Notes: generated from the letters alone by a model not told the origin. A stretch of 50,522 nucleotides of DNA from Frankiales bacterium (GCA_025965935.1 JAOPVZ010000106.1:1-50522), one strand, 5' to 3'. Counted from the stretch's first letter, positions 7,324-21,450 are shown. Numbers and translations are program-made.

Positions 7324-7327
7324 TGCG

Positions 7328-9007
7328 CTAGAACCAGCGCGCCTCCATGTCGAGGGTCGTGCGGTCGAGGCTGGCAACGAGATCGAGCTGTGGGCCGGTC
7401 TTCGGGAGCTCCCAGGCGAAGAAGTACTGAGCTGCGCGCCGCTTGCCCTCGTAGAAGTCGCCGTCCTTGCCCTCGGCAGCGAGCAGCTGCTCCAGCCACA
7501 TCCAGGCGATGACCGTGTGCCCGACGGCCTCGAGGTACGGCGTTGCGTTGGCGAGCGAGAGGACCACATCGCCTGCGTCCCAGACCTTCTGCGTCACCTC
7601 GACGATCCGTGCCACGACGTCGCGGAGCTGCGTGGCGTAGGGCTCGGGCGCCCGGACGCAGGTCGCCTCGATGGTCTCGGCGAGCTTCGTCAGCCCAGCG
7701 CCGCCGTCCATCGTCGCCTTGCGGCCGAGCAGGTCCAGGGCTTGGATGCCATGGGTGCCCTCGTGGATCGGGTTGAGCCGGTTGTCCCGGTAGAACTGCT
7801 CGACCGGGTACTCACGGGTGTAGCCGTAGCCGCCCAGCACCTGGATCGCGAGGCTGTTGGCCTCCAGGCACCACTGGCTCGGCCAGCTCTTCGCGATCGG
7901 GGTGAGCATGCCCAGAAGCAGCTCCTCTCCCTGGTCGACCAGCTTCCCGCAGTACAGGTTGAGGGCAAGCGCTCCTTCGACGTACGACTTCTGCGCGAGC
8001 AGCATCCGCCGTACGTCGGGGTGCTCGATGATCGGGACCTGCGGGGTGGTGGCGTCCTTGCCGGACCGGCCCTGCGGGCGGCTGCGGGCGTAGTCGAGCG
8101 AGTGCAGGTAGCCGGTGTAACCGAGTGCCGTGGCACCCAGGCCGACCCCGATGCGGGCCTCGTTCATCATGTGGAACATGTACGGCAGGCCACGGTTCTC
8201 CTCGCCGACGAGGTAGCCGACCGCGCCCTCGAACGACAGCACCGTGTTGACGGTGCCGCGGAAGCCCATCTTGTGGTTGATCCCGGTGAGCGTGACGCCG
8301 TTGCGGCTGCCGTCCTCGAGGTACTTCGGGACGACGAGCAGCGAGATCCCTTTGCTGCCAGGCGGTCCGCCCGGGACCTTGGCGAGGACCAGGTGCACGA
8401 TGTTCTCGCTGAGGTCGTGCTCACCCGCGCTGATCCACATCTTGTTGCCGGTCACGCGGTAGCTGCCGTCCTCCTGGCGCTCGGCCTTGGTCGTGATGTC
8501 GGCGAGGCTGCTGCCGGCCTGCGGCTCGGACAGGCACATGGTGCCGAAGTAGCGGCCCTCGACCATGGGAAGCACGAAGCGCTCGATCATCTCCGGCGAG
8601 CCGTGCGCCGCCAGGAGGTTTGCGTTGGCGACGGTCAGCAACGGGTAGGCGGCGGTGCCGACGTTCGCGGCGTGGAACCAGCCCATCAGCGCCTGGCAGA
8701 TCACCGCGGGCAGCTGCATGCCGCCCACGCTGGCGTCCATGCCGGCGCCGATGAACCCGGCGTCGCCATAGGCCTTCAGTGCCTTCCCCACCTCCTCGTG
8801 CAGGACGACCTTGCCGTCGACGAACTGCGGCTCCTCGAGGTCGTTGCGACGGTTGTGCGTCGCGAAGTCCTTCGTGGCGATCTGCTCCGCCAGGTCGAGG
8901 ACCGCGTCGTAGGTCTCCCGGGTGTGCTCGCTCGGCAGGCTCGTGACGTCGAGCCACTCGTAGAGCAGGAAGTCGAGGTCGCGACGCGAGAGCAGCAATG
9001 AGGCCAT
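7328..9007 (-). CDS. Acyl-CoA dehydrogenase
   Basis: TMCLSEPQAGS, GNKMWIS, QVLGGYGY, IHEGT motifs. Confidence 0.95.
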   Translation of the reverse strand: MASLLLSRRDLDFLLYEWLDVTSLPSEHTRETYDAVLDLAEQIATKDFATHNRRNDLEEPQFVDGKVVLHEEVGKALKAYGDAGFIGAGMDASVGGMQLPAVICQALMGWFHAANVGTAAYPLLTVANANLLAAHGSPEMIERFVLPMVEGRYFGTMCLSEPQAGSSLADITTKAERQEDGSYRVTGNKMWISAGEHDLSENIVHLVLAKVPGGPPGSKGISLLVVPKYLEDGSRNGVTLTGINHKMGFRGTVNTVLSFEGAVGYLVGEENRGLPYMFHMMNEARIGVGLGATALGYTGYLHSLDYARSRPQGRSGKDATTPQVPIIEHPDVRRMLLAQKSYVEGALALNLYCGKLVDQGEELLLGMLTPIAKSWPSQWCLEANSLAIQVLGGYGYTREYPVEQFYRDNRLNPIHEGTHGIQALDLLGRKATMDGGAGLTKLAETIEATCVRAPEPYATQLRDVVARIVEVTQKVWDAGDVVLSLANATPYLEAVGHTVIAWMWLEQLLAAEGKDGDFYEGKRRAAQYFFAWELPKTGPQLDLVASLDRTTLDMEARWF

Positions 9008-9118
9008 GACCGCAGGTTACGGACCGACCCGGGCTCGCCCAGTCGCACTCTCCTGATCTCATGCCGTCGGGGGTGCGAGTGCCGGGCCCATGGCGCGTTA
9101 CCCGATCAGGGAAGCGGG

Positions 9119-9829
9119 TCAGAGGCGGGCGACGTAGACGCTGTTGGAGGACGTGCCGCCGGTCAGCGGGTTGGGGAACTCGACGAGGTGGCCGTCGGCG
9201 GTCGTGAAGACCTCGCGAAGGACCCCCAGGAAGGCGTCTTCGGGCGGGTCGTCGGACCAGAGCGCGAACACGCCACCCGGGTTGAGCCGGTGGGCGAGGT
9301 GGCGCAGGCCGTCGGGGGAGTAGAACGCCGAGTGGGACCCGTTCAGCACGTGTGCCGGCGTGTGGTCGATGTCGAGCAGCACCGCGTCGACGCGTGCCGG
9401 GGTGCCGCTGCCGAAGCCGGAACCGCCGGCCACCAGGGCGAAGAAGTCGCCGTGCACGAGGTGGCAGCGGGGGTCGTCGACGATCGCGGGGCTGAGGGGG
9501 AGCAGCTTCTGCTCGTGCCAGTCGATCACGGGGCTGAGCGCCTCGACGACGTGCAACGACCGGACCCGCCGATCGGCCAACGCGGCACCGGCGGTGTAGG
9601 CGAGCCCGAGCCCGCCGACGACGACGTCCAGGTCTTCGTGGTCCAGGGCGGCGAGTCCGAGGGTGGCCAGCGCCTCCTCGGCGACGGTGAACAGGCTCGA
9701 CATCAGGTACTCCTCGCCGAGCCGCACCTCGTAGACGTCGACCCTGAGCGTCGGCTCCACCCGGCGGCGCAGGCTGATCTCGCCGATCGGCGTCTCGCGC
9801 CAGTCGAGCTCCTCGAACCGCTTGCTCAT
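9119..9829 (-). CDS. Spermidine-synthase-like SAM-binding protein
   Basis: VVVGGLGLAYT glycine loop, LLDIDHTP, LNPGGVFALWS. Confidence 0.8.
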   Translation of the reverse strand: MSKRFEELDWRETPIGEISLRRRVEPTLRVDVYEVRLGEEYLMSSLFTVAEEALATLGLAALDHEDLDVVVGGLGLAYTAGAALADRRVRSLHVVEALSPVIDWHEQKLLPLSPAIVDDPRCHLVHGDFFALVAGGSGFGSGTPARVDAVLLDIDHTPAHVLNGSHSAFYSPDGLRHLAHRLNPGGVFALWSDDPPEDAFLGVLREVFTTADGHLVEFPNPLTGGTSSNSVYVARL

Positions 9830-9937
9830 CGGGTGTCCGTTCGGTCAGGTGCGATCTGCTGCCCTGCTCGGCTTCGAGCTGGGCGCGGCTGGGCGCGCTC
9901 GGGGGAGGACGGCCTGCTCATACCAGAGCAGGGAAGG

Positions 9938-10453
9938 TCAGAAGAGCACGGCTCCGACGGTCCGGGCCTCGAGGTCGAGCAGCCAGCGCTTGGCGTGTAG
10001 ACCGCCGCCGTAGCCGACGAGGGTGCCGTCGGCGCCGATGACGCGATGGCAAGGGGTGACGATCGCGTTGGGGTTGGAGCCGTTGGCGAGACCGACGGCA
10101 CGGGACGCCACCCGCGGGTCCTCACCGATGGCGAGCGCGATGTCGCCGTAGGAGCGGGTCGTGCCGTAGGGGATGTCCCGCAGCGCAGCCCAGACCCGCA
10201 GCTGGAAGCTGCTGCCCCGCTCGTCGAGGGGGAGGTCGAAGTCCTGGAGCTCGCCCGCGAAGTAGGCGTGCAGCTGCTCGCGGGCGGCCGGGAGGCACAA
10301 GGCGCCGGCGTCGTAGCGCTCGTCGGTGGTCCGCGGGACGCCCTTGCTCTCCGGCAGGTGGGTCTGCACGAGGCCCCGCTCGGAGGCGACCAGGAGCATC
10401 TCGCCGATCGGGGTGCCGACTGTGCAGCTCCGGAGCCCTGTGTCCACAGCCAC
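9938..10453 (-). CDS. ogt: Methylated-DNA--protein-cysteine methyltransferase
   Basis: FQLRVW, IPYGTTRSYG, RAVG, PCHRV active site, GYGGG...KRWLL. Confidence 0.95.
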   Translation of the reverse strand: MAVDTGLRSCTVGTPIGEMLLVASERGLVQTHLPESKGVPRTTDERYDAGALCLPAAREQLHAYFAGELQDFDLPLDERGSSFQLRVWAALRDIPYGTTRSYGDIALAIGEDPRVASRAVGLANGSNPNAIVTPCHRVIGADGTLVGYGGGLHAKRWLLDLEARTVGAVLF

Positions 10454-10465
10454 CCCTTGACGTCA

Positions 10466-10495
10466 GACCCCTCCAAGAGGTCTACTGGAGGGGTC
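10466..10495. repeat. Perfect 10-bp inverted repeat GACCCCTCCA-N10-TGGAGGGGTC in the divergent promoter region
   Basis: Arms at 10466-10475 and 10486-10495, between TTGACG (10457-10462) and the SOS box. Confidence 0.7.
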
Positions 10496-10497
10496 GT

Positions 10498-10513
10498 TCG
10501 AACAAATGTTCGA
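10498..10513. promoter_or_regulatory. LexA (SOS) box, actinobacterial type
   Basis: TCGAACAAATGTTCGA is an exact TCGAAC-N4-GTTCGA palindrome between ogt and the DUF6504-HEPN-dnaE2-like genes. Confidence 0.93.
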
Positions 10514-10519
10514 CACGAT

Positions 10520-10678
10520 CCGACGAGACCTGAAGGCCCCGTCGGTGACGGTACCTCCGCCGTACGACAGGTGTCTCGACCCTCTCCTGCCGTACGGCGG
10601 TGGCCCCGGCCTCGCCGGAGCGTGGGGAAGCGCTTCAGCGAGGCCGGACCGTCGTCCGTGCTGCCGTCTTCCCCCGGC
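10520..10678 (+). ncRNA. Putative structured leader RNA with kissing-loop potential
   Basis: Four hairpins by eye; the loops UGGGGAAG (10623-10630) and UCUUCCCC (10667-10674) are complementary. Confidence 0.5.
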
Positions 10679-10700
10679 GTGACCTGCAGGAGGAAGACCC

Positions 10701-11045
10701 ATGAGCCGCCGCTTCACCGACCCGGTCGAGGTGCACACCCGGGTGGAGGCCTCCGGGCCGGTGCCTGACCAGTTCCTGTGGCGCGGGCGGCTCTACGTCG
10801 TGCGCGAGGTGCTTGCGCGCTGGACCGAGTCGGGTTCGTGGTGGCGCGGCACGAGCATGTCCGCGGTCGTCACCGGGGACGAGGTCGCGACCACCACGCT
10901 GGCCGTCGACGACCGCGCGACGCAGTGGTGGCGGATCGAGGCCGACTCCGGGCGGCTGGCGGCGATGAGCGCAGGACCTGGCGTCTACGACCTGTGCTTC
11001 ACCGAGTCGACCGCGCAGTGGTCGCTGAAGCGGGTGATGGACTGA
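10701..11045 (+). CDS. DUF6504-family protein (ImuB C-terminal-domain-like)
   Basis: P-x-x-FLWRGRLYVV...W.E...WW...WRIEA...VYDL...W.L..V.D pattern; AGGAGG RBS. Confidence 0.8.
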   Translation: MSRRFTDPVEVHTRVEASGPVPDQFLWRGRLYVVREVLARWTESGSWWRGTSMSAVVTGDEVATTTLAVDDRATQWWRIEADSGRLAAMSAGPGVYDLCFTESTAQWSLKRVMD

Positions 11046-11428
11046 TGATGCGGGGAACGGGGCGCACTCCCGACACGCTCCTGGGACTCGCCCACGAGGG
11101 CCTCCGCGAGGCCGCCGCGACCACCTCGCCGAGCCGGCGTTACGCCCTCGCCCACCTCGCCGCCCTGCGGGCAGCGGCCGCGGTGCTGTCCTGCCGGGCG
11201 CACAGCCGGGAGCGGTCCCGTCCGACCAGCGCGTGGGTGCTGCTCGCCCGGGTCGCGCCCGAGCTCAGCGAGTGGGCGCAGTTCTTCGCCGCGGGTGCCG
11301 AGAAGCGGGCGGTCGCCGAGGCCGGGATCGCCGGTGCGGTCACGCCGCGGGAGGCCGACGACCTGCTGCGCGACGCGCAGTCCTTCCTGCAGGTCATCGA
11401 GACCACGCTGCTCGCCCGAGCCGGCTGA
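11045..11428 (+). CDS. SAV_6107-family HEPN-domain protein
   Basis: RYALAHLAALRAAAAVL, SAWVLLARVAPELSEWAQFFAAGA..RA.AEAG, READDLLRDA; start overlaps the upstream stop (TGATG). Confidence 0.85.
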   Translation: MMRGTGRTPDTLLGLAHEGLREAAATTSPSRRYALAHLAALRAAAAVLSCRAHSRERSRPTSAWVLLARVAPELSEWAQFFAAGAEKRAVAEAGIAGAVTPREADDLLRDAQSFLQVIETTLLARAG

Positions 11429-11437
11429 CATGCCCTC

Positions 11438-14400
11438 ATGACCGACCCGTTCGTCCACCTGCACGTTGCCAGCGGGTACTCGCTCAAGCACGGCGCCTCG
11501 CACCCGAAGCAGCTCGTCGAGCGGGCCGCTGAGCACGGCATGGACGCGCTGGCGCTGACCGATCGCGACGGCGCCTACGGGATCGTGAAGTTCGCGCAGG
11601 CGTGCGAGAGCTGGGGAGTGCGGCCGATCTTCGGCGTGGACCTGGCCATGGCGCCCGTGGCGCCAGTGATCCACGGAGAGTTGGCGCACTTTCTGAGGGG
11701 TCCAGAGCGAGGCAACTCTCCGCCGATCAAGAAGTCGATCAAGAACAGGACGGTGCCGGCGCGCGGTGGGGCGTTCCGGCTCGAGCTGCGGCGGGTGACC
11801 TTCCTCGCGCGGGACGGCAAGGGTTGGGCGCAGCTGTGCCGGCTCATCAGCGCGACCCACCTCGCGGGCGAGCGCGGGCAGCCGGTGAGCTCCCTCGACC
11901 TGGTCGCGGAGCACGCGAGCGGAGGCGGCATCGCCGTGCTGCTCGGGCCGCAGTCCGAGCTGGGCCGGGCGCTGGACCGCAGGAGGCCGGACGAGGCGGC
12001 CGCCCACCTGCGGACCTGGCGCGACGTCCTCGGCCGCGACGCCGTCGTCGTCGAGGTCGTGCACCACCGCGGCCCCGGCGACGCCGCGAGGGCCGCGCGC
12101 TTCCTCGGCTTCGCCCACGAGCAGCGGGCGACGGCGGTGCTGTCCAACGTCGTCCGGTACGCGGACCGGGCCGACGCCCCTACCGCTGACGTCCTCGACG
12201 CGTCGCGCCGGCTCGTCGCCCTGGACGCCCGGCACGTCGACCGCGCCAACGCCGAGGCCGCCCTGCTGTCCGGCAAGGAGATGGCCGACGTCGCCGAGGA
12301 AGTGGCGAGGTACGCCGGCCTCCGCGACGAGGGGCGCTCGCTGCTCGCCGAGACCCGCAAGCAGGCGGACCGGTGCGCCGTCGACCCTCGATCAGACCTC
12401 GGCATCGGCGAGGTGCACTTCCCCGAGCTGGAGGTGGCGGGGGAGGCGAGCGCGCTGCTGCGGGAGCGCTGCGAGGCCGGGCTCAACCGCCGCCAGATGC
12501 CGCGGGACACCAAGACCCTGCAGCGCCTCGACGAGGAGTTCGCCGTCATCGAGGGCCTCGGCTTCCCGTCGTACTTCCTCACCGTCGCCGACGTCGTCGA
12601 CCTCATCAAGGCCGCCGGCGTCCGGGTCGCCGCCCGCGGCAGCGGGGCGGGCAGCCTGGTCAACTACCTGCTCGGCATCAGTGACGTCGACCCGATCCGC
12701 TACGGCCTGCTCATGGAGCGGTTCCTGTCACCGCTGCGCAACCAGCTCCCGGACATCGACATCGACGTCGAGTCGGCACGTCGCACTGAGCTCTACGAGC
12801 TCATCCTCGCCCGGTACGGCGGTGAGCGCTGCACCTGCGTCTCGATGATGGACACGTACCGCGCGCGGCACGGCATCCGGGACGTCGGCGCTGCTCTCGG
12901 CCTGCCGCCCGGCGACGTGGACGCGCTGGCCAAGGCGTTCCCGCACATCCGCGCCAGCCAGGTGCGGCAGGCGATGAAGGACTTGCCCGAGCTGCGGTCC
13001 AGTGGTCTCAACACCTCGCGGGTCGACCTGGTGCTGCAGCTGGTCGAACGGCTCGACGGGCTGCCGCGCCACATCGCGCTGCACCCGTGCGGGGTGCTGC
13101 TCTCAGACCGCACGCTGCTCGACCGCACGCCGGTCGAGTCGAGCTGGCTGGGCTTCCCGATGAGCCAGTTCGACAAGGACGACGTGGAGGCGCTGGGGCT
13201 GCTCAAGCTCGACGTGCTCGGCATCCGGATGCAGTCGGCGATGGCCCACGCGATGGACGAGGTCGAGCGGGTCGAGGGCACCCGTCCCGACGTCGACTCC
13301 ATCAGCAGGGAGGACCTGCGCACCTTCCACCTCGTGCAGTCGACCAAGACCCTCGGCTGCTTCCAGATCGAGTCGCCCGGGCAGCGCGAGCTGATCGGCA
13401 AGTTCGCGCCGGAGACCTTCGAAGACCTCATCACCGACATCAGCCTGTTCCGCCCGGGGCCGGTGAAGAGCGACATGGTGCGGCCGTTCCTCGAGGCCCG
13501 GAACGGCTGGAAGGAAGCGCTCTACGTCCACGACGACCTGCGTGAGGCCCTGGAGCAGACCTACGGCGTCGTCGTCTTCCACGAGCAGGTCCTCATGATC
13601 GTCGCCAAGATGACCGACTGCAGCCTTGCCGAGGCCGACGAGGTCCGGCGGGCCCTCGGCAACGACGACGGCCAGGAGGAGGTGCGGGTCTGGTTCCGGC
13701 CCACCGCGCTCGGCCGCGGCTACTCGACGGAGGTCGTCGACGAGGTCTGGGACATCCTCAAGGCCTTCGGGTCCTTCGGCTTCTGCAAGGCCCATGCGGC
13801 GGCGTTCGCCCTCCCGACGTACCAGTCGACGTGGCTCAAGGCGCACCATCCCGCAGCGTTCCTCGCCGGGGTGCTGACCCACGACCCCGGCATGTACCCG
13901 AAGCGGCTCATCCTCGACGACGCCCGGCAGTTCGGCATCGCGATCCTGTCCCTGGACGTCAACGCGAGCCAGCCGGCGTACACGGTGGAGAAGGTCGGCT
14001 TCCTCGACGAGCCGCCGCCCGCAATCCTCGGGGCGCCACCGCGGTCGAGAGCGGACGATCTCGACCTGCCGGACGGGCGTGGGCACGGCATCCGGATCGG
14101 GCTGTCGGACGTGCGCGGCATCACCGAGGCGGAGATCGCCCGGATCGTCGCGGGGCGGCCGTTCGCGTCGCTGTCGGACTTCTGGCACCGGGCGGCGGTG
14201 TCGAGGCCGATCGTCGAGCGGCTCGTGGTGGCAGGCGGTTTCGACTCCCTGTACGGGCTCGGCTCCTCGATCCCCGGGAGGCGCAGGGGGCAGGTGACCC
14301 GGCGCGACCTGCTGCTGCAGGTGGCCGAGCTCGACCGCTGGAGCCGCTCGGTCCAGAGGGGCCAGCCGAAGAAGCGGAAGGCCGACGCACCAAGGGCTTT

Positions 14401-15196
14401 CGACCTCGACATCCCCCTTGACGACGTCAAGGGACGGCAGGCAAAGCAGTCCCAGAGGGCGACCGTCGTCGAGCCGGTCGACATGCAGCTCGCGCTCGAC
14501 CTCGGGGACGCGCCGGAGCAGACCGTGCCGAGCGGGCTGCCGGAGATGACGCAGGCCGAGCGCACCCGTGCCGAGCTCGACGTGCTCGGTCTCGACGTGA
14601 GCAGCCACGTGCTCGACGGCTACCGGCAGTTCTTCGCCGAGCTCGGCGTGACGCCCGCCAAGGACCTGCTCGGCTGCCGCAGCAACCAGGGCGTCCTCGT
14701 CGCCGGTGTGAAGGTCGCGACCCAGACCCCGCCGATCCGCTCCGGTCGCCGGGTCGTCTTCGTGACCCTCGACGACAGCACCGGTCCGGTCGACGCGACG
14801 TTCTTCGAACAGGCCCAGGTCGGCTACGCCAGCACCGTCTTCCACTCTTGGCTGCTCGTGATCAGAGGAGAGGTACGACGGACCGGCCCCCGTGGTCTGT
14901 CGCTGCTGGCACTGGGCGCCTGGGAGCTGCCGGTGCTGCACGCGGTGTGGAGCCACGGCGGGATGGACGCCGTGTGGGAGCACATGGAGCTGCCGGGAGT
15001 CGTCACCGAGCAGTCGGTGCACGGGGCCGCGGAGTCGCGGTCGACCCGGCCCGTGATGACCAGGCCTCCCGCATCGGCGCCGGTGCAGGTCTACCCGACC
15101 GGCTTCAAGCTGTCGGCGTACTCCGACATCAAGCCCGCGGGAACGGGCGTGACCCGCAAGCTCTGGCACGCCAGCCCGGGAAGCAGTGGGCGGTGA
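11438..15196 (+). CDS. dnaE2: DNA polymerase III alpha subunit, DnaE2-like (error-prone type)
   Basis: PHP domain (FVHLHVAS.YS, ALTD), RGSGAGS, catalytic PDIDID, KLDVLG, GFCKAHA, OB fold; SOS box upstream; C-terminus KLWHASPGSSGR rather than SRDF(H/R). Confidence 0.88.
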   Translation: MTDPFVHLHVASGYSLKHGASHPKQLVERAAEHGMDALALTDRDGAYGIVKFAQACESWGVRPIFGVDLAMAPVAPVIHGELAHFLRGPERGNSPPIKKSIKNRTVPARGGAFRLELRRVTFLARDGKGWAQLCRLISATHLAGERGQPVSSLDLVAEHASGGGIAVLLGPQSELGRALDRRRPDEAAAHLRTWRDVLGRDAVVVEVVHHRGPGDAARAARFLGFAHEQRATAVLSNVVRYADRADAPTADVLDASRRLVALDARHVDRANAEAALLSGKEMADVAEEVARYAGLRDEGRSLLAETRKQADRCAVDPRSDLGIGEVHFPELEVAGEASALLRERCEAGLNRRQMPRDTKTLQRLDEEFAVIEGLGFPSYFLTVADVVDLIKAAGVRVAARGSGAGSLVNYLLGISDVDPIRYGLLMERFLSPLRNQLPDIDIDVESARRTELYELILARYGGERCTCVSMMDTYRARHGIRDVGAALGLPPGDVDALAKAFPHIRASQVRQAMKDLPELRSSGLNTSRVDLVLQLVERLDGLPRHIALHPCGVLLSDRTLLDRTPVESSWLGFPMSQFDKDDVEALGLLKLDVLGIRMQSAMAHAMDEVERVEGTRPDVDSISREDLRTFHLVQSTKTLGCFQIESPGQRELIGKFAPETFEDLITDISLFRPGPVKSDMVRPFLEARNGWKEALYVHDDLREALEQTYGVVVFHEQVLMIVAKMTDCSLAEADEVRRALGNDDGQEEVRVWFRPTALGRGYSTEVVDEVWDILKAFGSFGFCKAHAAAFALPTYQSTWLKAHHPAAFLAGVLTHDPGMYPKRLILDDARQFGIAILSLDVNASQPAYTVEKVGFLDEPPPAILGAPPRSRADDLDLPDGRGHGIRIGLSDVRGITEAEIARIVAGRPFASLSDFWHRAAVSRPIVERLVVAGGFDSLYGLGSSIPGRRRGQVTRRDLLLQVAELDRWSRSVQRGQPKKRKADAPRAFDLDIPLDDVKGRQAKQSQRATVVEPVDMQLALDLGDAPEQTVPSGLPEMTQAERTRAELDVLGLDVSSHVLDGYRQFFAELGVTPAKDLLGCRSNQGVLVAGVKVATQTPPIRSGRRVVFVTLDDSTGPVDATFFEQAQVGYASTVFHSWLLVIRGEVRRTGPRGLSLLALGAWELPVLHAVWSHGGMDAVWEHMELPGVVTEQSVHGAAESRSTRPVMTRPPASAPVQVYPTGFKLSAYSDIKPAGTGVTRKLWHASPGSSGR
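11667..11745. repeat. GATC-bounded palindromic (REP-like) element in frame within dnaE
   Basis: TGATC-NN-CGGAGAGTTG...CAACTCTCCG-NN-GATCA, followed by a duplicated CGATCAAGAA. Confidence 0.6.
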
Positions 15197-15224
15197 TATC
15201 CCGGCCGACCCTAGGCTGGCGGCC

Positions 15225-15962
15225 ATGGAGACGAGGCGCGGCCCGGCAGCGAACGTGCGCACCGCCGTCGTCTGGGAGGTCCTGTCGACGGTCCTCGCCA
15301 CGCCGGGCCAGGTGGTCGTCGACGCCGGCGGCGGCACCGGCGGCTTCGCCGTGCCACTGGCCGAGGCCGGTCACCGGGTCACCGTCGTCGACCCCAGCCC
15401 CGACAGCCTCGCAGCGCTGCAGCGGCGGGCGGCCGAGCGATCGCTCGACGTCGCCGCGCTGCAGGGCGACCTCGGTGACCTCGCCTCGCTCGTGCCGGCA
15501 GGCAGCGCCGACCTGGTGCTGTGCCACTCGGTGCTCGAGGTGGCCAGTGAGACCGCCGACCCTGCTGACCTGCTGGCTGCCATCGCCGATGTGCTCCGGC
15601 CCGGGGGCCGGCTCAGCCTGCTGGTCGCCAACCGCGACGCCGCCGTCCTCGCCCGCGCCCTGGCCGGCCGTCCCGACGAAGCGGCTCATGCCCTCACCGA
15701 CCCGGCCGGCCGCTGGGGGAGGGCGGACGGCATCGCCCGCCGCTGGACGCCCTCGGCGATCGCCGAGCTCGTGGCGGGGACCGGCCTCGTCGTGGAGCAG
15801 GTGCACGGCGTGCGCTGCGTCTCCGACCTGGTGCCCAGCGCGGTGCTCGACACCGAGCCCGGTGCCGCCGCGGCCCTGCTGGCGCTCGAGCGGCGGCTGT
15901 CGGACCAGGCGCCGTTCCGCGACCTCGCGACCCAGGTCCACCTCCTCGCACGCAAGGGCTAG
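15225..15962 (+). CDS. Class I SAM methyltransferase, CmoM/SmtA-like
   Basis: VVDAGGGTG, DLVLCHSVLE, LRPGGRLSL, GVR..SD, LLALE...H..ARK; ATG lies 7 nt after TAGGCT, so likely leaderless. Confidence 0.82.
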   Translation: METRRGPAANVRTAVVWEVLSTVLATPGQVVVDAGGGTGGFAVPLAEAGHRVTVVDPSPDSLAALQRRAAERSLDVAALQGDLGDLASLVPAGSADLVLCHSVLEVASETADPADLLAAIADVLRPGGRLSLLVANRDAAVLARALAGRPDEAAHALTDPAGRWGRADGIARRWTPSAIAELVAGTGLVVEQVHGVRCVSDLVPSAVLDTEPGAAAALLALERRLSDQAPFRDLATQVHLLARKG

Positions 15963-15976
15963 TGGGTGAGCCGGTC

Positions 15977-17284
15977 ATGAGTCGGCGCAACAACCCGGCG
16001 GGACCGCCGCAGGGACCGCCGGGCGACGACACCGGCTGCCACGTCCTGCACGTGGACATGGACGCCTTCTACGCCAGCGTCGAGCTGCGCGACCGCCCCG
16101 AGCTGCGCGGCAAGCCCGTCATCGTGGGCGGCGGCGGGTCGCGCGGCGTGGTGCTGTCGGCGACCTACGAGGCGCGGGCGTTCGGGGTCACCTCGGCCAT
16201 GCCCATGGCCCGGGCCAGGCGGCTGTGCCCGCCGGCGATCGTCATCAGCCCGCAGCACGGGCGCTACTCGCAGGCGAGCGCCGGCGTCATGGAGGTCTTC
16301 CGCTCGATCACCCCGCTGGTCGAGCCTTTGTCGCTGGACGAGGCGTTCCTCGACGTCCGCGGCGCGGCCCGGCGCTTCGGGGGAGCCCGCCTGATCGGCG
16401 AGTACGTCCGCGCGACGGTCGAGGACGAGCAGGGGATCACCTGCTCGGTCGGGGTGGCCCCGACGAAGTTCCTCGCCAAGCTGGCGAGCGCGCACTGCAA
16501 GCCCGACGGGCTGCTGGTCGTGCCCGCCTCGGACGTCGTCGGCTTCCTGCACCCGCTGCCCGTGTCGGCGCTGTGGGGGGTCGGCGAGAAGACCGAGGAG
16601 GTGCTGCTCAAGCTGGGGCTGCGAACGGTCGGCGACCTCGCCTCGACACCGGTCGCCACCCTGCAGCGGGCTCTCGGGCCGGCGATGGGGGCGCACCTGT
16701 CCGCGCTGGCCTGGGGCCGCGACGAGCGGGTCGTCACCCCCTCGGAGCCCGAGAAGAGCATCGGGGCGGAGGAGACCTTCCCGGTCGACGTCGACGACCC
16801 CTCTGTCGTACGGCGGGAGCTGCTGCGGCTGTCGGAGCGGACCGCTGCCCGGCTGCGGTCCGCCGGGCAGGTCGGCCGCACCGTGTCGATCAAGGTGCGC
16901 TTCGCCGACTTCACGACGATCACCCGGTCCAAGACGCTGCGGGAGGCCACGGACGTGGGCCGCGTCGTCTACGACACGGCCCTCGGGCTCTACGAGGCGC
17001 TCGGCCTGGAGCGGGCCCGGCTGCGGCTGGTCGGCGTGCGGGTGGAGCAGCTCGTCGCCGTCGAGCGCGCCCCTCGCCAGCTGTTGCTGGGAGACAAGGA
17101 GATCGGCTGGCGGGAGGCCGAGCAGGCCGTCGACCGGGCGGCCCACCGGTTCGGGGCCGGCGCCGTCCGCCCCGCTGCGTTGGTCGAGCCGGACGACCCG
17201 CTCCGGGGAGCTCAAGCAGGGAAAAGGCCTGAGAAACCTGTGAAGCAGCCCTATCAACGGCCGCGATCTGGGGACTCCTCATGA
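15977..17284 (+). CDS. dinB: DNA polymerase IV (Y family)
   Basis: HVDMDAFYASVE, YEAR.FG, SLDEAFLD, KLAS...KPDG; QLLLG clamp-like motif. Confidence 0.95.
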   Translation: MSRRNNPAGPPQGPPGDDTGCHVLHVDMDAFYASVELRDRPELRGKPVIVGGGGSRGVVLSATYEARAFGVTSAMPMARARRLCPPAIVISPQHGRYSQASAGVMEVFRSITPLVEPLSLDEAFLDVRGAARRFGGARLIGEYVRATVEDEQGITCSVGVAPTKFLAKLASAHCKPDGLLVVPASDVVGFLHPLPVSALWGVGEKTEEVLLKLGLRTVGDLASTPVATLQRALGPAMGAHLSALAWGRDERVVTPSEPEKSIGAEETFPVDVDDPSVVRRELLRLSERTAARLRSAGQVGRTVSIKVRFADFTTITRSKTLREATDVGRVVYDTALGLYEALGLERARLRLVGVRVEQLVAVERAPRQLLLGDKEIGWREAEQAVDRAAHRFGAGAVRPAALVEPDDPLRGAQAGKRPEKPVKQPYQRPRSGDSS

Positions 17285-17350: not shown

Positions 17351-17761
17351 GTGCCTCTCTCTGAGCACGAGCAGCGACTGCTCGACCAGATCGAGCGTGC
17401 CCTCTATGCCGAGGACCCGAAGTTCGCCACGACCGTTCGCAGCACCGACCTCCGCACGCACATGCGCCGCCGGATCATCCGGATGGTCGTGCTGTTCGTG
17501 ATCGGCTTCGTGATGATGCTGGTCGGCGTCATCGTGCGGGTCATCCCGGTCAGCGTGATCGGCTTCGGCGTCGCCCTGCTCGCGATGCTGCTCGGCGCCA
17601 ACGCCTACAAGCGGATGAACGGTGGCCCTGCGCTGCGGACGGTCGACGGCCCGCCGCGCACCTCCCGCAAGAAGCAGAAGAGCAAGTCCGGGGGATCCGC
17701 GAAGGACCGCCTCGAGGAGCGTTGGCGCAAGCGCTGGGAAGAGCGCGGCGGATCTCAGTAG
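17351..17761 (+). CDS. DUF3040 membrane protein
   Basis: MPLSEHEQRLLDQIERALYAEDPKFA, two TM helices, RLEERWRKR tail; usual position near mraZ. Confidence 0.9.
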   Translation: MPLSEHEQRLLDQIERALYAEDPKFATTVRSTDLRTHMRRRIIRMVVLFVIGFVMMLVGVIVRVIPVSVIGFGVALLAMLLGANAYKRMNGGPALRTVDGPPRTSRKKQKSKSGGSAKDRLEERWRKRWEERGGSQ

Positions 17762-17791: not shown

Positions 17792-20170
17792 TCAGCGGAC
17801 GGCGCGCCGGCGGATCGGCCTCGTGATGGCGGCGATGCTGTCGTCGACGGCGTCCATGATCCGGCTCAGCCGGGAGCCGAGCGACGTGCCCGCCCACCGC
17901 AGGGTCGACGGCGGGAACAGCACCGCCCGCAGCCGTACGGAGCGCGGCGCCCGCGCCTGCAGCGCGGACCGCACGAGGGCGACGTCGAGCGAGAGGTCCT
18001 CACGCGCCTGCCGCTCGGGCGGTGCGTAGCGGGCCCGCTCGGTCGCGGCCGCGATCCGGGACAGCGCCTGGGTGGCTGGTTCGCCCAGCGGCACGCCGCT
18101 CGACAGCCGGGCCGCGGCGGCGCGTGGGGAGTCGGCGCCCTGCCAGGTCCAGCCGACGTCGGTGCCGTCGTCGACCAGCTGCTCCCACGGTGTGAGGGGA
18201 TCCGCGTCCGCCCAGCGGAACCGACGTCGCAGCACCGTGAGGCCGAACGGGAGCACCAGCAGGACCGCGGCGACGACCGGTGCCACGAGCCAGGGCGATG
18301 GCCCCGAGCTGCCGGATGACTGCGTCGTGCCCGCCGCGGTGCCGCCGGCGTCCCCGTTGAGGATCCTCGCGATGCCGGGCGGCAGGCTGGCCGTCGGCTT
18401 GGGGCCGGCCGTCGCGGTGGCACTGGGGCCCGGAACCGTCGGGTTCCCCTGACCGGGGACCGGCAGCGCCGAGGTGTAGCCAGGGATCGAGGCCTGGCTG
18501 GCGTCGGGGGTCGGCTCGAAGCGCACCCAGCCGGTCCCGGCGAACCACGCCTCCGGCCACGCGTGCGCCTCCTGCGACGTGACCTCGTAGAAGGTGCTGC
18601 CGTCGCTGGCGGTCTGCTTCACGCCGGGAGTGAAGCCGACGGCCACGCGGGACGGGATCCCGGCCACGCGCAGCATGACGGCCATCGCGGTGGCGTACTG
18701 CTCGCAGAAGCCGTGCTTGCCCTGCAGGAAGGCGACCAGCTTGTCCTGGCCGGGCAGCGCCTGGGTGGCCTGCAGGTCGTACTTGAAGGCGGGGTTGCGG
18801 GCGAAGTAGTCCTGGATGGCGACGGCCTCGTCGTACTCGGTGGTCTTCCCCTTCACGACCTGGTCGGTCAGCGTCTGGACGAAGTGGTCGACGGTCAGCG
18901 GCCGGTCGTACACGGCCCGGACGTCGGCGGGGACGTTGTCGAGGCTGGCGACCTGCAGCGTGGAGCGGTCCGGCAGGGCCCGGCTGGCCTGGACCTTGTA
19001 GGTCGTCACGTCCTTGGTGCTCTGCCCGGGTGAGAAGACCGTCTGGCTGCGCTTCTCCCACACCCAGGACGGGTCGACGTTGACCTTCGTCGGGCCGTAG
19101 GGAACCGGCAGCCAGTGGATGTCGAGGGCCTTGTCCCGCAGGGCGACCCGCATCGTGAAGTCGTCGTGCGCGCCCAGCTGGTCGCTCGACGGCGGGATGC
19201 CGTTGCGGACCTGGGCCTTCTTGGGGTCCGCCCGTAGCTCGGTCGCCGACCAGGTGCCGTCGGCGTAGCTGTCGAGGGTGGTCATCCTGATGTAGTCCGG
19301 CTGCGGGTCGCTGGTCACGTAGTCGAACAGCGGCACCCGCACCTTGTTGTCGAGGAAGCCCTGCAGCTTGGTGATGGGGTTGTAGGTGAGCACCCGCTGG
19401 GATCCGCCGCTGCCGCCCGAGCCGCTGCCACCACCGCCGCCGCCGACGAGGCGGTGGTCGAGGCCCGGCGTCAGCCAAGGGACGATCACCGCGGCACCCA
19501 CCGCGGCCACGCCGATGCGGCGGCCCACCCGTCCGAGGCTGCTGTCGTCCCCGCCTGGTCGGGCCCCCGGCAGTGCGGACCGCATGGGCGTGCCCCAGCG
19601 GCCGACGCGCTCGCTGCCCTCGACGAGGAGCAGCCCCAGCCAGCCGATGGCGCCGAGGACGAACGGCAGCCCACCGATGCCGCCAGGGAGTACGGCGGAG
19701 GGGACCGCCAGCAGGACGAGCAGCGGCAGACCCGAGACTGCCGCCCGGTCGAGCACGACGGCGACCAGGTCGACGGCCAGCGCCACGGCCCCGACGCCTG
19801 CGGCGGTGAGCAGCTCCAGCCCGTGCGACACCGGTACCGGGGGTCCGTAGTGCTGGATGTTGTTCTGGGCCTGGTCCCACAGCGAGCGCAGGGCATCGCC
19901 GGTGCCGCTGGTCGGGATGACGCCGGCGGACATCGTGTCGCCGACGAAGACCACCAGCAGGTAGGCGACCAGCAGCACCAGCGCGATCAGCGGCTGCAGG
20001 CTGCGCGGCACACCGAGCCGGCGGGTCAGCACCCCGCTGACCACGACGACCAGGATCGCGCCGAGCGACGAGAGCATCCAGTGGCTGCCGGCGTAGATCG
20101 GGGACAGCGCCGACATGGCGAGCGCCACCGCGACGCCGGCGGCCAGGGTGAGCTGCTCCTTGATGCTCAT
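17792..20170 (-). CDS. Membrane transglutaminase-like protein (TgpA/DUF3488)
   Basis: Multi-TM N-terminus; GFCEQYA, SRVAVGF, AHAWPE, GWVRFEPTP; start MSIKEQ overlaps the DUF58 stop. Confidence 0.9.
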   Translation of the reverse strand: MSIKEQLTLAAGVAVALAMSALSPIYAGSHWMLSSLGAILVVVVSGVLTRRLGVPRSLQPLIALVLLVAYLLVVFVGDTMSAGVIPTSGTGDALRSLWDQAQNNIQHYGPPVPVSHGLELLTAAGVGAVALAVDLVAVVLDRAAVSGLPLLVLLAVPSAVLPGGIGGLPFVLGAIGWLGLLLVEGSERVGRWGTPMRSALPGARPGGDDSSLGRVGRRIGVAAVGAAVIVPWLTPGLDHRLVGGGGGGSGSGGSGGSQRVLTYNPITKLQGFLDNKVRVPLFDYVTSDPQPDYIRMTTLDSYADGTWSATELRADPKKAQVRNGIPPSSDQLGAHDDFTMRVALRDKALDIHWLPVPYGPTKVNVDPSWVWEKRSQTVFSPGQSTKDVTTYKVQASRALPDRSTLQVASLDNVPADVRAVYDRPLTVDHFVQTLTDQVVKGKTTEYDEAVAIQDYFARNPAFKYDLQATQALPGQDKLVAFLQGKHGFCEQYATAMAVMLRVAGIPSRVAVGFTPGVKQTASDGSTFYEVTSQEAHAWPEAWFAGTGWVRFEPTPDASQASIPGYTSALPVPGQGNPTVPGPSATATAGPKPTASLPPGIARILNGDAGGTAAGTTQSSGSSGPSPWLVAPVVAAVLLVLPFGLTVLRRRFRWADADPLTPWEQLVDDGTDVGWTWQGADSPRAAAARLSSGVPLGEPATQALSRIAAATERARYAPPERQAREDLSLDVALVRSALQARAPRSVRLRAVLFPPSTLRWAGTSLGSRLSRIMDAVDDSIAAITRPIRRRAVR

Positions 20171-21450
20171 CGGACCGCCGTCTCGGCACGGGCGGCGACC
20201 GTGGCGGCGAGGGGCCAGACCGAGGCCAGCGTCGTGCCGTGCTCGACCCGCAGCACCCGCCAGCCGGCGGCCGCGAGCAGGCTGGCCGAGGACTCGTAGG
20301 CCTGCTTGGCCTCCTCCCGTCGCCGCGGGCCGCTGGGGGCCCAGCTCTCGGCGTCGACCAGGACCGCGACGCACGCGCCTGCGCCGTGCCGGAGCCGGGC
20401 GAGCCGTTCCGCGTCGTCGGGGCGCAGGGAGCCGACCACTGCGACCAGCACGCCATCGACTCCGTTGCGACGGAGCTGGCCGGTGGCTGCCTCGAGCGAC
20501 TCGGCCCGCGACGACGCGACGCCGGCCAGCGCGTCCAGCACCGCGCCCTCGCTCGACGGCACCGAGACCGGGACCAGGTCGACGCCGTTGTCCAGCAGCA
20601 CGCGCAGCCCGTAACCCGCGCGGCCGAGGTTCACAGCGATGCTCGCGACGCCGCTGACCGCCCACTCGAAGGACGAGCCCGGACCGTCGCCGCGGTGCGC
20701 GACGACCCGGCTGTCGAGCAGCACGGTCGCCCGGCTCTGGAACGGCTGCTCCTCTCGGCGGACCATCAGCTCGCCGACCCGGGCCGTGGAGCGCCAGTGC
20801 ACCTTGCGCAGGTCGTCGCCGTGCCGGTACTCACGGGTGGCCGCGTCGTCGGAACCGGTTGCCGCGATGGAGCGGGCGGTCGCGTCGCCACCGCCGGTCC
20901 AGTCGCCACCCAGCCGGATCGTCGGCAGCGGCGACACCGTGGGGGTGACGATCAGGTCGTCGGTGGAGGAGAAGGAGCGGCTCATCTCCACGAGCCCGAA
21001 GGGATCGGTGAGGCGGACCGACAGCGGCCCGACCCGGTAGCGGCCGCGGACGTCTGCGCGGACGGGGTAGCTGACCTCGCGGACACCCTTGGGCTCCACC
21101 CGGTCGAGCACGAACCGCGGCCTGCCGCCCAGGACGTAGGGGAGCGCGTCCTCCATGAGCAGCACGCCGCTGGAGATCTTGGAGACGTTGTCGAGCCGGA
21201 GCCGCACGGTCGCCGGCCGGCCCGCCTCGACGCGCGGCGGGTCGAGCAGCCTCGCGCAGGCCAGCCGGTAGCGCGTGCGCGCGACCACGAAGACCGCCGC
21301 GAGTGGCAGGAAGATGAGGAACACGGCGGCGCGCAGCAGGTCACGCTGCCCGAGCAGGACGGCGCAGGCCGCGAGTGCCAGTCCCGCGGCGAGCAGGCAG
21401 CGCCCGCGGGTCGTGAGACCCGAGAGCGCGCGCCCGACCGCACCCGGCAC
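20167..21450 (-). CDS. DUF58-domain protein
   Basis: DPFGL, REYRHGDDLRKVHWRSTAR.GELMVR. Confidence 0.92.
   Translation of the reverse strand: MPGAVGRALSGLTTRGRCLLAAGLALAACAVLLGQRDLLRAAVFLIFLPLAAVFVVARTRYRLACARLLDPPRVEAGRPATVRLRLDNVSKISSGVLLMEDALPYVLGGRPRFVLDRVEPKGVREVSYPVRADVRGRYRVGPLSVRLTDPFGLVEMSRSFSSTDDLIVTPTVSPLPTIRLGGDWTGGGDATARSIAATGSDDAATREYRHGDDLRKVHWRSTARVGELMVRREEQPFQSRATVLLDSRVVAHRGDGPGSSFEWAVSGVASIAVNLGRAGYGLRVLLDNGVDLVPVSVPSSEGAVLDALAGVASSRAESLEAATGQLRRNGVDGVLVAVVGSLRPDDAERLARLRHGAGACVAVLVDAESWAPSGPRRREEAKQAYESSASLLAAAGWRVLRVEHGTTLASVWPLAATVAARAETAVR

What the first reader, a model, noticed from the sequence alone, without database searches (positions are those of the whole stretch)
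10498..17284. Non-canonical SOS mutasome: stand-alone ImuB-C-like domain + HEPN protein + DnaE2-like polymerase, next to an active DinB
Seen: a perfect LexA box precedes DUF6504, a SAV_6107-type HEPN gene and a C-family polymerase. The first two overlap and the third starts 9 nt later; a methyltransferase and dinB follow. No imuA' or imuB lies in the window. Known: canonical mutasomes are imuA(')-imuB-dnaE2, where inactive Y-family ImuB binds the clamp and binds DnaE2 via its C-terminal domain. Inference: the 114-aa DUF6504 protein (F.WRGR...E..WW...WR.E...W.L) resembles that ImuB C-terminal domain, so ImuB appears reduced to a free adaptor. The HEPN protein would be an extra subunit of unknown role, and DinB (DMD and DE residues intact) could supply the Y-family part. 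This would be a distinct damage-induced mutagenesis machine.
Basis: partly seen in the sequence, partly recalled or inferred. Interest (0 to 1): 0.85.

Follow-up and report, generated by a model that had tools for sequence, protein, structure and literature searches.

The report
SOS-controlled DnaE2B/ImuB-C/DinB operon with HEPN
This is an ordinary example of a DNA-damage-switched operon for an error-prone polymerase complex that was already described in Actinobacteria, although it also carries a very conserved small HEPN gene and a structured leader RNA that I did not find in the papers I could search.

Summary
A perfect LexA box (10498-10513) is followed by a structured 187-nt leader and five tightly packed genes. 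These are DUF6504/ImuB-C-like, HEPN_SAV_6107, a 1252-aa C-family polymerase, a SAM methyltransferase and an active DinB.

No ImuA' or ImuB was found in the 85%-complete genome, nor ImuB in 6 genomes of the same family.

A stand-alone ImuB-C with DnaE2 and an active Y-family polymerase is already published (Biol Direct 2013; NAR 2019; NAR 2026, "DnaE2B-[ImuB-C]-PolY-RecA", Actinobacteria only). This scan has noted the same operon in at least 14 other genomes.

The block is standard in Actinomycetes. It occurred in 17 of 20 DUF6504-centred genomes, almost always behind a perfect LexA box.

What the papers I searched do not mention:
- **The HEPN gene.** It lacks the Rx4-6H motif, and its mean column identity is 54-67% depending on the alignment.
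- **A covarying two-hairpin leader RNA.** It has no Rfam match and a single copy in this genome.

New here: the same LexA-box/DUF6504/HEPN front end also heads canonical imuA'-imuB-dnaE2 cassettes and plain MTase-dinB operons. HEPN also persists alone in Streptomyces without a LexA box. ImuB is therefore not simply "reduced" here, and HEPN's role remains open.

The parts
10498..10513 (.). LexA (SOS) box, a perfect palindrome TCGAAC-N4-GTTCGA
   Evidence: It is the only exact match in the window. A perfect box lies within 600 nt upstream of the DUF6504/HEPN pair in 19 of 19 relatives, 35 of 38 named DUF6504-HEPN-DnaE2 loci and 16 of 17 DUF6504-centred loci that have enough upstream sequence.
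10514..10700 (+). Structured 5' leader RNA. It holds hairpin P0 (10520-10545), an outer helix (10547-10552 with 10648-10653), P1 (10554-10603, loop motif CTCGACC at 10575-10581), P2 (10606-10647, loop GGGGAAG at 10624-10630), CTTCCCC (10668-10674), and a hairpin (10666-10698) that pairs CTTCC with the Shine-Dalgarno GGAGGAAG (10689-10696).
   Evidence: - The MFE is -104.7 kcal/mol, z = -4.47, and 0 of 200 shuffles fold as well.
- For P1 and P2, 89.2% of cells are paired against 39.5-46.1% for slid controls. 19 of 24 pairs show compensatory change, and 0 of 500 shuffles reach this.
- No Rfam family matches; the best E is 0.074, far below gathering.
- Covariance model R1 finds one copy in the own genome (E 1.3e-16). 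It finds 27 matches in 100 other loci, 19 of them not in the training set.
10701..11045 (+). Stand-alone ImuB-C-like protein (Pfam DUF6504), 114 aa
   Evidence: - Pfam scores it at 66.7 bits.
- The AlphaFold2 model is all-beta, with mean pLDDT 78.4 and a disordered loop at residues 48-69.
- No PDB fold match was found; the best E is 0.9.
- The same Pfam model hits the C-terminus of a canonical ImuB.
11045..11428 (+). HEPN_SAV_6107 protein (126-127 aa), non-catalytic by motif
   Evidence: - Pfam scores it at 121 bits.
- The model has pLDDT 89.9 and is a helical bundle.
- The best PDB matches are HEPN proteins: 2hsb with TM 0.74, then 1ufb, 1wol and HEPN/MNT toxins.
- Invariant residues are R101..D104 D105 L106..R108, with no His in the Rx4-6H position.
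11438..15196 (+). Accessory C-family polymerase (DnaE2B-like), 1252 aa
   Evidence: - Pfam finds PHP, DNA_pol3_alpha, finger, HHH_6 and OB domains.
- It scores 682 bits on the NCBIfam error-prone model, under the cut-off of 939. ImuB-linked DnaE2s score 1503 and 1372 bits.
- It shares 32-34% identity with those DnaE2s.
- A second DnaE lies on contig C58.
15186..15962 (+). Class I SAM-dependent methyltransferase, a facultative member of the block
   Evidence: It matches Pfam Methyltransf_25/11/12. The best NCBIfam hit, CmoM at 92 bits, is far below the cut-off of 366. It is present in 9 of 17 full operons in the DUF6504-centred sample.
15962..17284 (+). Active DinB (Pol IV) with a C-terminal QLLLG motif and a RecA-NT-like helix (AEQAVDRAAHRFGAGAV)
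   Evidence: - NCBIfam PRK03858 scores 394 bits against a cut-off of 367, and the catalytic motifs are intact.
- The tail aligns to the N-terminus of the genome's own RecA (BLASTP E 0.013 for that single comparison).
- The tail motif is present in 68 of 71 DinB orthologues of these loci.
17351..17761 (+). DUF3040 gene that closes the conserved syntenic block; probably not part of the operon's function
   Evidence: It matches Pfam DUF3040 at 97.8 bits. It follows DinB or the MTase in nearly all loci.

Best explanation
The locus is an SOS-regulated, translationally coupled operon for the actinobacterial ImuA/ImuB-free translesion ("mutasome") module, published as DnaE2B-[ImuB-C]-PolY-RecA.

**Shown by sequence and comparison**
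- A LexA operator, then a structured leader, then ImuB-C-like, HEPN, DnaE2B-like, MTase and active DinB genes, packed with overlaps of 1-11 nt.
- The genome has RecA, but no ImuA' or ImuB was found.
- The block is conserved across Actinomycetes.

**Inferred from the published models of related complexes and from what is known of LexA**
- DNA damage makes RecA filaments cleave LexA, and the operon is then transcribed as one mRNA.
- The small beta-barrel ImuB-C protein docks on the PHP domain of the accessory polymerase.
- DinB supplies the clamp contact and, through its RecA-NT-like tail, a RecA contact.
- The complex carries out error-prone lesion bypass.

**My own inference, weaker**
- The non-catalytic HEPN protein is a co-expressed accessory or regulatory partner of this front module rather than an RNase.
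- The leader RNA gates translation of the first gene. Its CUUCCCC can pair either with the Shine-Dalgarno sequence or with the GGGGAAG loop of P2.
For: - **Families and gene packing:**
- **LexA box:** unique in the window and conserved in front of the pair in nearly all loci.
- **No ImuA'/ImuB:** not found in the own genome. ImuB was found in 0 of 6 genomes of the same family against 58 of 81 genomes in the order sample, own genome included.
- **RecA:** present.
- **DinB tail:** resembles the RecA N-terminus and is conserved in 68 of 71 orthologues.
- **DUF6504 Pfam model:** hits the C-terminus of a canonical ImuB.
- **Polymerase:** scores below the canonical DnaE2 cut-off, while ImuB-linked ones score far above it.
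- **Conservation:** the full block DUF6504-HEPN-DnaE2-[MT]-DinB-DUF3040 occurs in 17 of 20 DUF6504-centred genomes. DUF6504-HEPN-DnaE2 occurs in 39 of 80 named HEPN-centred loci.
- **Literature:** PMC12926913 sections 20 and 22 read in full, and passages of PMC6511836 and PMC3765255, describe this module and report AlphaFold support for it.
- **Leader:**
Against: - There is no expression or induction data for this organism.
- Assignment to the paper's "DnaE2B" clade rests on scores and identities, not on a tree with their references.
- The profile-profile comparison of DUF6504 with actinobacterial ImuB C-termini was not significant (probability 0.85%, P 0.065, only 31 columns aligned).
- The Pfam hit on a canonical ImuB is just under the gathering score.
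- HEPN also occurs without DUF6504, DnaE2, DinB or a LexA box (Streptomyces HEPN-MT-DUF3040, 5 of 5 loci). Its tie to the polymerases may therefore be only positional.
- The genome is 84.8% complete, so the absence of ImuA'/ImuB is not proven.
Confidence: 0.85

Rival explanations
1. One reading: a previously unknown kind of mutasome in which ImuB has been reduced to a free C-terminal adaptor and HEPN is a new subunit.
For: The parts are as described. No ImuA'/ImuB was found. HEPN is not mentioned in the main text of the three relevant papers (0 occurrences). No paper held both HEPN and DnaE2, or DUF6504.
Against: The ImuB-C/DnaE2/PolY module without ImuA/ImuB is already in print. The DUF6504-HEPN pair also precedes a full imuA'-imuB-dnaE2 cassette, with ImuA' at 183 bits against a cut-off of 65 and DnaE2 at 1503 bits against 939. 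It also coexists with ImuB at another locus (G034). It is therefore not a remnant of ImuB.
Confidence: 0.1
2. HEPN, and perhaps the MTase, is only a syntenic neighbour. On this view it is an old resident of the locus next to DUF3040, with a function unrelated to translesion synthesis, and polymerase cassettes were inserted behind it.
For: - HEPN-MT-DUF3040 occurs without DUF6504, DnaE2, DinB or a LexA box in 5 of 5 Streptomyces loci.
- HEPN-DinB-DUF3040 occurs without detectable DUF6504 in 9 loci.
- The slot behind HEPN holds three different contents.
- One small-genome lineage has DUF6504-DnaE2-DinB without HEPN (L127).
Against: - Outside Streptomyces, HEPN lies behind the LexA box and the leader, inside the transcription unit.
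- Its start overlaps the stop of DUF6504.
- It keeps this position in 17 of 20 DUF6504-centred genomes from many families.
- It is more conserved than its neighbours: 54% mean column identity against 33% for DUF6504 and 45% for the polymerase N-terminus, over the same 51 genomes.
Confidence: 0.3
3. DUF6504-HEPN is a toxin-antitoxin-like or RNA-targeting stress pair of the HEPN/MNT type that happens to be SOS-induced.
For: The nearest solved folds include HEPN/MNT toxins. There is a weak PADLOC hit to the candidate defence component PDC-M05B (E 1.4e-6). It is a two-gene overlapping arrangement.
Against: - The Rx4-6H RNase motif is absent from all 51 aligned sequences. The HEPN survey lists this family as lacking it (table row seen in PMC3710099).
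- The partner is a beta-barrel, not a nucleotidyltransferase.
- It is single-copy and strictly syntenic, not mobile.
Confidence: 0.05

Closest known systems
DnaE2B-[ImuB-C]-PolY-RecA putative mutasome of Actinobacteria (NAR 2026, PMC12926913; example named there: Tessaracoccus lapidicaptus)
   Same: [quoted passage not shown]
   Different: The paper's main text does not mention the HEPN gene, the methyltransferase or the leader RNA that sit in the same operon here. Its supplementary tables and figures could not be opened and may show them.
Canonical ImuA'-ImuB-DnaE2 mutasome (mycobacterial type)
   Same: SOS-controlled error-prone C-family polymerase that needs an ImuB-C domain. In other families of the same order it occupies the very same slot, behind the same LexA-box/DUF6504/HEPN front end.
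   Different: Here there is no ImuA' and no catalytically dead ImuB. ImuB-C is a separate 114-aa protein, the Y-family partner is an active DinB, and the polymerase scores below the NCBIfam error-prone cut-off.
lexA-imuB-C-polY operon of Geobacter sulfurreducens (cited in PMC6511836)
   Same: A stand-alone ImuB-C co-transcribed with an active Y-family polymerase under damage control.
   Different: That operon has no DnaE2 and no HEPN, and lexA itself is in it. It is also from a different phylum.
HEPN/MNT toxin-antitoxin pairs and minimal HEPN proteins (e.g. PDB 2hsb, 7ae2)
   Same: The fold of the second gene product (TM 0.74 to 2hsb) and a small two-gene overlapping layout.
   Different: There is no Rx4-6H motif and no MNT partner. 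The gene is chromosomal, single-copy and syntenic, and it is placed inside a polymerase operon.

Membership tests
DnaE2B-[ImuB-C]-PolY-RecA module | Accessory C-family polymerase distinct from the replicative DnaE1 and from ImuA/ImuB-linked DnaE2A | tested here: met
   A second DnaE is present on C58. The window polymerase scores 682 bits, under the cut-off of 939 on the error-prone model, against 1503 and 1372 bits for ImuB-linked DnaE2s. It shares 32-34% identity with those. No tree with the paper's reference sequences was made.
DnaE2B-[ImuB-C]-PolY-RecA module | [quoted passage not shown] | tested here: met
   Pfam DUF6504 scores 66.7 bits. The same model hits the last 70 residues of a canonical ImuB (E 3.2e-4, 21.4 bits, below the gathering score of 24.2) and the Caulobacter control over the cut-off. 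The model is all-beta. Against this, hhalign with actinobacterial ImuB C-termini was not significant.
DnaE2B-[ImuB-C]-PolY-RecA module | Apparently active Y-family polymerase carrying a RecA-NT-like motif | tested here: met
   The catalytic DMD and DE motifs are intact. The tail aligns with the own RecA N-terminus (E 0.013 for that single comparison). The motif is present in 68 of 71 orthologues.
DnaE2B-[ImuB-C]-PolY-RecA module | Genome encodes RecA but neither ImuA nor ImuB | tested here: met
   RecA is present. There is one Y-family gene only, no ImuA' over the cut-off, and no ImuB C-terminus match in the own genome or in 6 genomes of its family. Caveat: the assembly is 84.8% complete.
DnaE2B-[ImuB-C]-PolY-RecA module | The proteins form a physical complex | not testable with these tools
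   This needs co-purification or a solved structure. The paper reports AlphaFold models only.
Canonical ImuA'-ImuB-DnaE2 mutasome | ImuA' and a catalytically dead ImuB with a fused ImuB-C domain | tested here: not met
   Neither was found in the genome. The only Y-family protein is active.
LexA (SOS) regulon | Operator matching the actinobacterial/Gram-positive LexA consensus upstream of the operon | tested here: met
   The match is exact and unique in the window, and it is conserved across loci. The consensus itself is recalled, not taken from a call.
LexA (SOS) regulon | Induction by DNA damage / LexA binding | not testable with these tools
   No experiment could be run here, and no expression data were available.
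HEPN superfamily | HEPN helical-bundle fold | tested here: met
   Pfam scores 121 bits. The model has pLDDT 89.9. The top PDB matches are HEPN proteins, with TM 0.74 and probability 1.00, although the Foldseek E-value is only 0.095.
HEPN superfamily (RNase members) | Rx4-6H catalytic motif | tested here: not met
   The invariant residues are R101-E-A-D-D-L-L-R108, with Arg in the His position in 51 of 51 sequences. The HEPN survey also lists this family as lacking the motif.
HEPN/MNT toxin-antitoxin | Adjacent minimal nucleotidyltransferase partner | tested here: not met
   The upstream partner is the DUF6504 beta-barrel. No NTase family was found in any neighbour.
Any Rfam family (leader RNA) | Score at or above a family's gathering threshold | tested here: not met
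   The best matches are E 0.074-0.1 at 19-20 bits, against gathering scores of 55-142.

The most novel reading that the evidence does not exclude
The LexA box, the two-hairpin leader RNA, the stand-alone ImuB-C protein and the non-catalytic HEPN protein together form an autonomous, ancient "front module" of actinobacterial translesion operons. This module is kept while the polymerase cargo behind it is exchanged: DnaE2B, ImuA'-ImuB-DnaE2, or MTase-DinB alone. Within it, HEPN would be a genuine regulatory or assembly subunit. The leader would be a translational switch in which CUUCCCC pairs with either the Shine-Dalgarno sequence or the P2 loop. Together they would add a second control layer, after LexA, on when mutagenic polymerases are made.
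Probability: 0.3. Interest if true: 0.6.

Novelty: new member of a known kind. Interest (0 to 1): 0.35.

Why it matters
The operon itself adds nothing to what was published in 2019-2026; it is one more example of a module that is standard in Actinomycetes.

Two of its most conserved parts are absent from the descriptions I could search:
- The HEPN protein is more conserved than the ImuB-C protein and than the polymerase N-terminus.
- The covarying leader RNA is specific to this operon.

If either controls assembly or synthesis of the error-prone polymerases, the current models of these mutasomes are incomplete. Those models were built without them. Damage-induced mutagenesis in Actinobacteria would then have an unstudied checkpoint.

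The finding that the same front end heads canonical imuA'-imuB-dnaE2 cassettes gives a direct way to test this in cultivable, harmless relatives.

Tried and rejected
- **Complex prediction.** I sent the DnaE2 N-terminus (345 aa), DUF6504 and HEPN as the partner. The result was no verdict: runs of 0.01, 0.73 and 0.00, with a median under the mark. It counts neither for nor against binding.
- **Sequencing-run search.** No RNA holder was listed. Only soil or metagenome DNA runs hold the stretch, so nothing can be said on expression.
- **hhalign of DUF6504 against 29 actinobacterial ImuB C-termini.** The result was not significant. L134 was dropped beforehand because its frame ran on without a stop.
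- **Local hmmsearch of the DUF6504 profile against 6 ImuB-like ORFs.** It gave E 2e-4 and 4e-3, but in a database of only 6 sequences, so I did not use it as evidence.
- **Search for fused (longer) forms of the window's DUF6504.** It found 1 hit of 296 aa with DUF6504 only. Fused forms are too distant for this tool.
- **PDB sequence search with DUF6504 and fold search.** Nothing significant was found.
- **ESM Atlas with HEPN.** It returned only the protein's own family.
- **PADLOC.** It gave weak HEPN and generic MTase hits, which I judged uninformative.
- **Promoter and terminator consensus scan.** It found 0 of each, which is uninformative in a high-GC actinobacterium.
- **Divergent ORF 9826-10476 as lexA.** I checked this and rejected it: the ORF has no Pfam family.
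- **The leader as a small ORF.** I considered this and rejected it. Indels among relatives are not multiples of three, and the stems covary.
- **Upstream segments of loci without a tblastn DUF6504 hit.** Only 2 of 54 candidate segments matched Pfam DUF6504.
Full report
**What is there**

The window holds a perfect LexA-type palindrome, TCGAACAAATGTTCGA, at 10498-10513. It is the only exact match to TCGAAC-N4-GTTCGA in 50.5 kb. The relaxed pattern with up to 2 mismatches is not discriminating: 6 matches against 1.84 expected, and 3 of 100 shuffles reached 6.

After a 187-nt leader come five genes on the plus strand:
- a 114-aa DUF6504 protein at 10701-11045 (66.7 bits);
- a HEPN_SAV_6107 protein at 11045/11048-11428 (121 bits);
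- a 1252-aa C-family polymerase at 11438-15196, with PHP, pol3-alpha, finger, HhH and OB domains;
- a class I SAM methyltransferase at 15186-15962;
- a Pol IV/DinB at 15962-17284 (394 bits against a cut-off of 367).

The junctions are a 1-nt overlap (TGATG), a 9-nt gap, an 11-nt overlap and a 1-nt overlap (TAGTG). The DinB catalytic motifs are intact.

**The rest of the genome**

The window is contig C8 of a 3.07-Mb, 315-contig assembly that is 84.8% complete.
- It has a second DnaE on C58, one RecA, one DUF6504 and one HEPN_SAV_6107.
- The window's DinB is its only Y-family polymerase.
- No ImuA' reaches the cut-off. The best hit is RecA itself, at 26 bits against 65.
- A query made of an actinobacterial ImuB C-terminal region finds nothing in the genome, and nothing in 6 other genomes of its family. 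It finds ImuB in 58 of 81 genomes in the order sample, which includes the own genome.

**It is a published kind of system**

- Aravind et al. 2013 (PMC3765255, passages read) defined the ImuB-C domain. They noted stand-alone versions in operons with DinB and with DnaE2.
- The 2026 survey (PMC12926913, sections 20 and 22 read in full) defines DnaE2B polymerases in genomes without ImuA/ImuB.
[quoted passage not shown] - It reports AlphaFold support for all these modules.

The window meets each defining feature I could test; see the membership table.

The DinB tail (RQLLLGD...AEQAVDRAAHRFGAGAV) aligns with the N-terminus of the genome's own RecA (E 0.013 for that single comparison). The motif is present in 68 of 71 DinB orthologues of these loci.

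This scan had already noted the same operon in at least 14 other genomes, with the same reading.

**Is DUF6504 really ImuB-C?**

For:
- The Pfam DUF6504 model also hits residues 461-526 of the 531-aa ImuB in an imuA-imuB-dnaE2 cassette on a Microvirga plasmid. The hit is E 3.2e-4 at 21.4 bits, just under the gathering score.
- The same model rings over the cut-off in the Caulobacter control genome.
- The AlphaFold2 model is all-beta (pLDDT 78.4) and has no PDB fold match. This fits the 2026 paper's description of ImuB-C as a beta-barrel without close PDB relatives.

Against:
- My profile-profile comparison with 29 actinobacterial ImuB C-termini was not significant (P 0.065). It did align the shared F.WRGR...W..WW stretch.
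- Those ImuB proteins do not hit Pfam DUF6504 at E <= 0.1.

I take the membership as met but remote.

**How common and how conserved**

- HEPN_SAV_6107 is present in 38 of 41 related genomes.
- DUF6504 is present in 159 of 301 Actinomycetes genomes.
- In 20 DUF6504-centred regions drawn from about 19 families, 17 show DUF6504-HEPN-DnaE2-[MT in 9]-DinB-DUF3040. Of the other three, one small genome lacks HEPN, one has DUF6504-DnaE2 only, and one has DUF6504 alone.
- The 80 named HEPN-centred loci were the best of at least 572 relatives. They divide as follows:
  - 39 have DUF6504-HEPN-DnaE2.
  - 12 have DUF6504-HEPN-MT.
  - 2 have DUF6504-HEPN followed by a DinB-profile match more than 600 nt downstream. 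In L099 this is an ImuB-like gene followed by DnaE2.
  - 26 have HEPN without detectable DUF6504. Of these, 12 are followed by DinB, 10 by MT, 1 by DnaE2 with no upstream sequence, 1 by something else, and 2 are truncated.
  - 1 gave no hit with my profile.
- Every locus that has DnaE2 directly after HEPN, and has upstream sequence, also has DUF6504.

A perfect LexA box lies within 600 nt upstream in:
- 19 of 19 relatives;
- 35 of 38 DUF6504-HEPN-DnaE2 loci, with the other 3 having one mismatch;
- 11 of 12 DUF6504-HEPN-MT loci;
- 16 of 17 DUF6504-centred operons.

A 12-specified-base palindrome is expected by chance about 4e-5 times in 630 nt (my arithmetic).

**New points from the synteny**

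- The slot between HEPN and MT-DinB-DUF3040 has exchangeable content.
  - In two other families of the same order (L107, L108) the same LexA box-DUF6504-HEPN front end is followed by a complete canonical cassette. L109 has the same cassette behind HEPN, with no DUF6504 detected and a one-mismatch box.
  - The cassette is ImuA' (NF058630, 183 bits against a cut-off of 65), an ImuB-like inactive Y-family protein, and DnaE2 (1503 bits against 939). MT, DinB and DUF3040 then follow.
- Elsewhere DUF6504-HEPN-MT-DinB coexists with ImuB on another contig (G034).
- The free ImuB-C protein is therefore not simply what is left of ImuB.
- In 5 of 5 Streptomyces loci, HEPN-MT-DUF3040 stands without DUF6504, DnaE2, DinB or a LexA box. 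This keeps open the possibility that HEPN is an old neighbour rather than a polymerase partner.

**The HEPN protein**

- The model is confident (pLDDT 89.9).
- Its best solved matches are minimal HEPN proteins and HEPN/MNT toxins (2hsb, TM 0.74).
- The Rx4-6H RNase motif is replaced by an invariant R-EADDLL-R. This agrees with the one table row on this family in the 2013 HEPN survey, which gives no conserved motif, no context and "actinobacteria".
- Over the same 51 genomes its mean column identity is 54%, against 33% for DUF6504 and 45% for the polymerase N-terminus.
- I found no paper holding DUF6504, none holding HEPN with DnaE2, and only two unrelated papers holding HEPN, LexA, Actinobacteria and SOS (listing only). 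SAV_6107 occurs in one paper.
- The supplements of the 2026 paper were closed and may show the gene in neighbourhood figures.

**The leader RNA**

A lead from earlier scan notes pointed to a leader hairpin, and I tested it here.
- The 197 nt from 10514 fold to -104.7 kcal/mol, with z = -4.47.
- Across 22 leaders, two hairpins are supported: P1 at 10554-10603 and P2 at 10606-10647.
  - 89.2% of cells are paired, against 39.5-46.1% when partners are slid.
  - 19 of 24 pairs show compensatory change, and 0 of 500 shuffles reach any measure.
  - Caveat: the structure was derived from these same sequences.
- The loop motifs are enriched among 91 leaders:
  - CTCGACC occurs in 59, against a background of 0.12 per 200 nt.
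  - GGGGAAG occurs in 47, against a background of 0.02.
  - CTTCCCC occurs downstream in 45, against a background of 0.02.
  - The last two occur in that order in 38.
- GGGGAAG and CUUCCCC are complementary. In the window's minimum-energy fold, CUUCC pairs instead with the Shine-Dalgarno GGAGGAAG. From this I infer a possible translational switch.
- No Rfam family matches.
- A covariance model finds one copy in the own genome. It finds 27 matches in 100 other loci, 19 of them outside its training set. All lie upstream of the pair on the operon strand, including loci that lack DUF6504.

**Verdict**

The window is an ordinary member of the DnaE2B-[ImuB-C]-PolY-RecA class. What remains of interest is the undescribed HEPN gene and leader RNA, and the finding that this front end is shared by three different polymerase cargos.

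Claims that include unpublished genomes:
- the tallies;
- one row (L020).

Noticed in passing
window 9826-10476 (minus strand): A divergent 216-aa ORF with no Pfam or PADLOC family starts 22 nt from the LexA box. Homologues (57-59% identity) were seen only in the two closest named loci, L039 and L050, in the same divergent position. It may share the SOS operator.
   Followed up: partly
L107 (G037) 6252-13639 and L108 (G031), same order as the window: These loci carry LexA box-leader-DUF6504-HEPN-imuA'-imuB-dnaE2-MT-dinB-DUF3040. A canonical mutasome cassette therefore sits in the exact slot that DnaE2B occupies in the window, while the free ImuB-C and HEPN genes are kept in front.
   Followed up: yes
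L028, L065, L072, L083, L084 (Streptomyces): These loci carry HEPN-MT-DUF3040 with no DUF6504, DnaE2, DinB or LexA box (2 mismatches or fewer) within 600 nt. Here HEPN persists outside any SOS or polymerase context.
   Followed up: partly
L127 (G092, a 1.5-Mb genome) 1507-6523: A small-genome lineage has DUF6504-DnaE2-DinB-DUF3040 behind a perfect LexA box but no HEPN gene. Its leader is only 43 nt.
   Followed up: no
L077, L078, L081, L087, L089, L095, L100 (Propionibacteriaceae and unclassified Actinomycetota MAGs): These HEPN-DinB-DUF3040 loci lack detectable DUF6504 and share the same one-mismatch box, TCGAACAGGCGTTCTA.
   Followed up: no
L097 53-390: The DUF6504 match is split over two overlapping frames, which suggests a frameshift or an assembly error in that MAG.
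   Followed up: no
window 17792-20665 (minus strand) and 7328-9007 (minus strand): The flanking genes are a 957-aa TgpA-like transglutaminase and an acyl-CoA dehydrogenase. They show no evident link to the operon.
   Followed up: no
window 15186-15962: The methyltransferase gives a 68.6-bit PADLOC hit to the MTase region of mad2 (MADS system). This is probably generic class I MTase similarity. The gene's substrate is unknown although it is widely conserved next to dinB.
   Followed up: no
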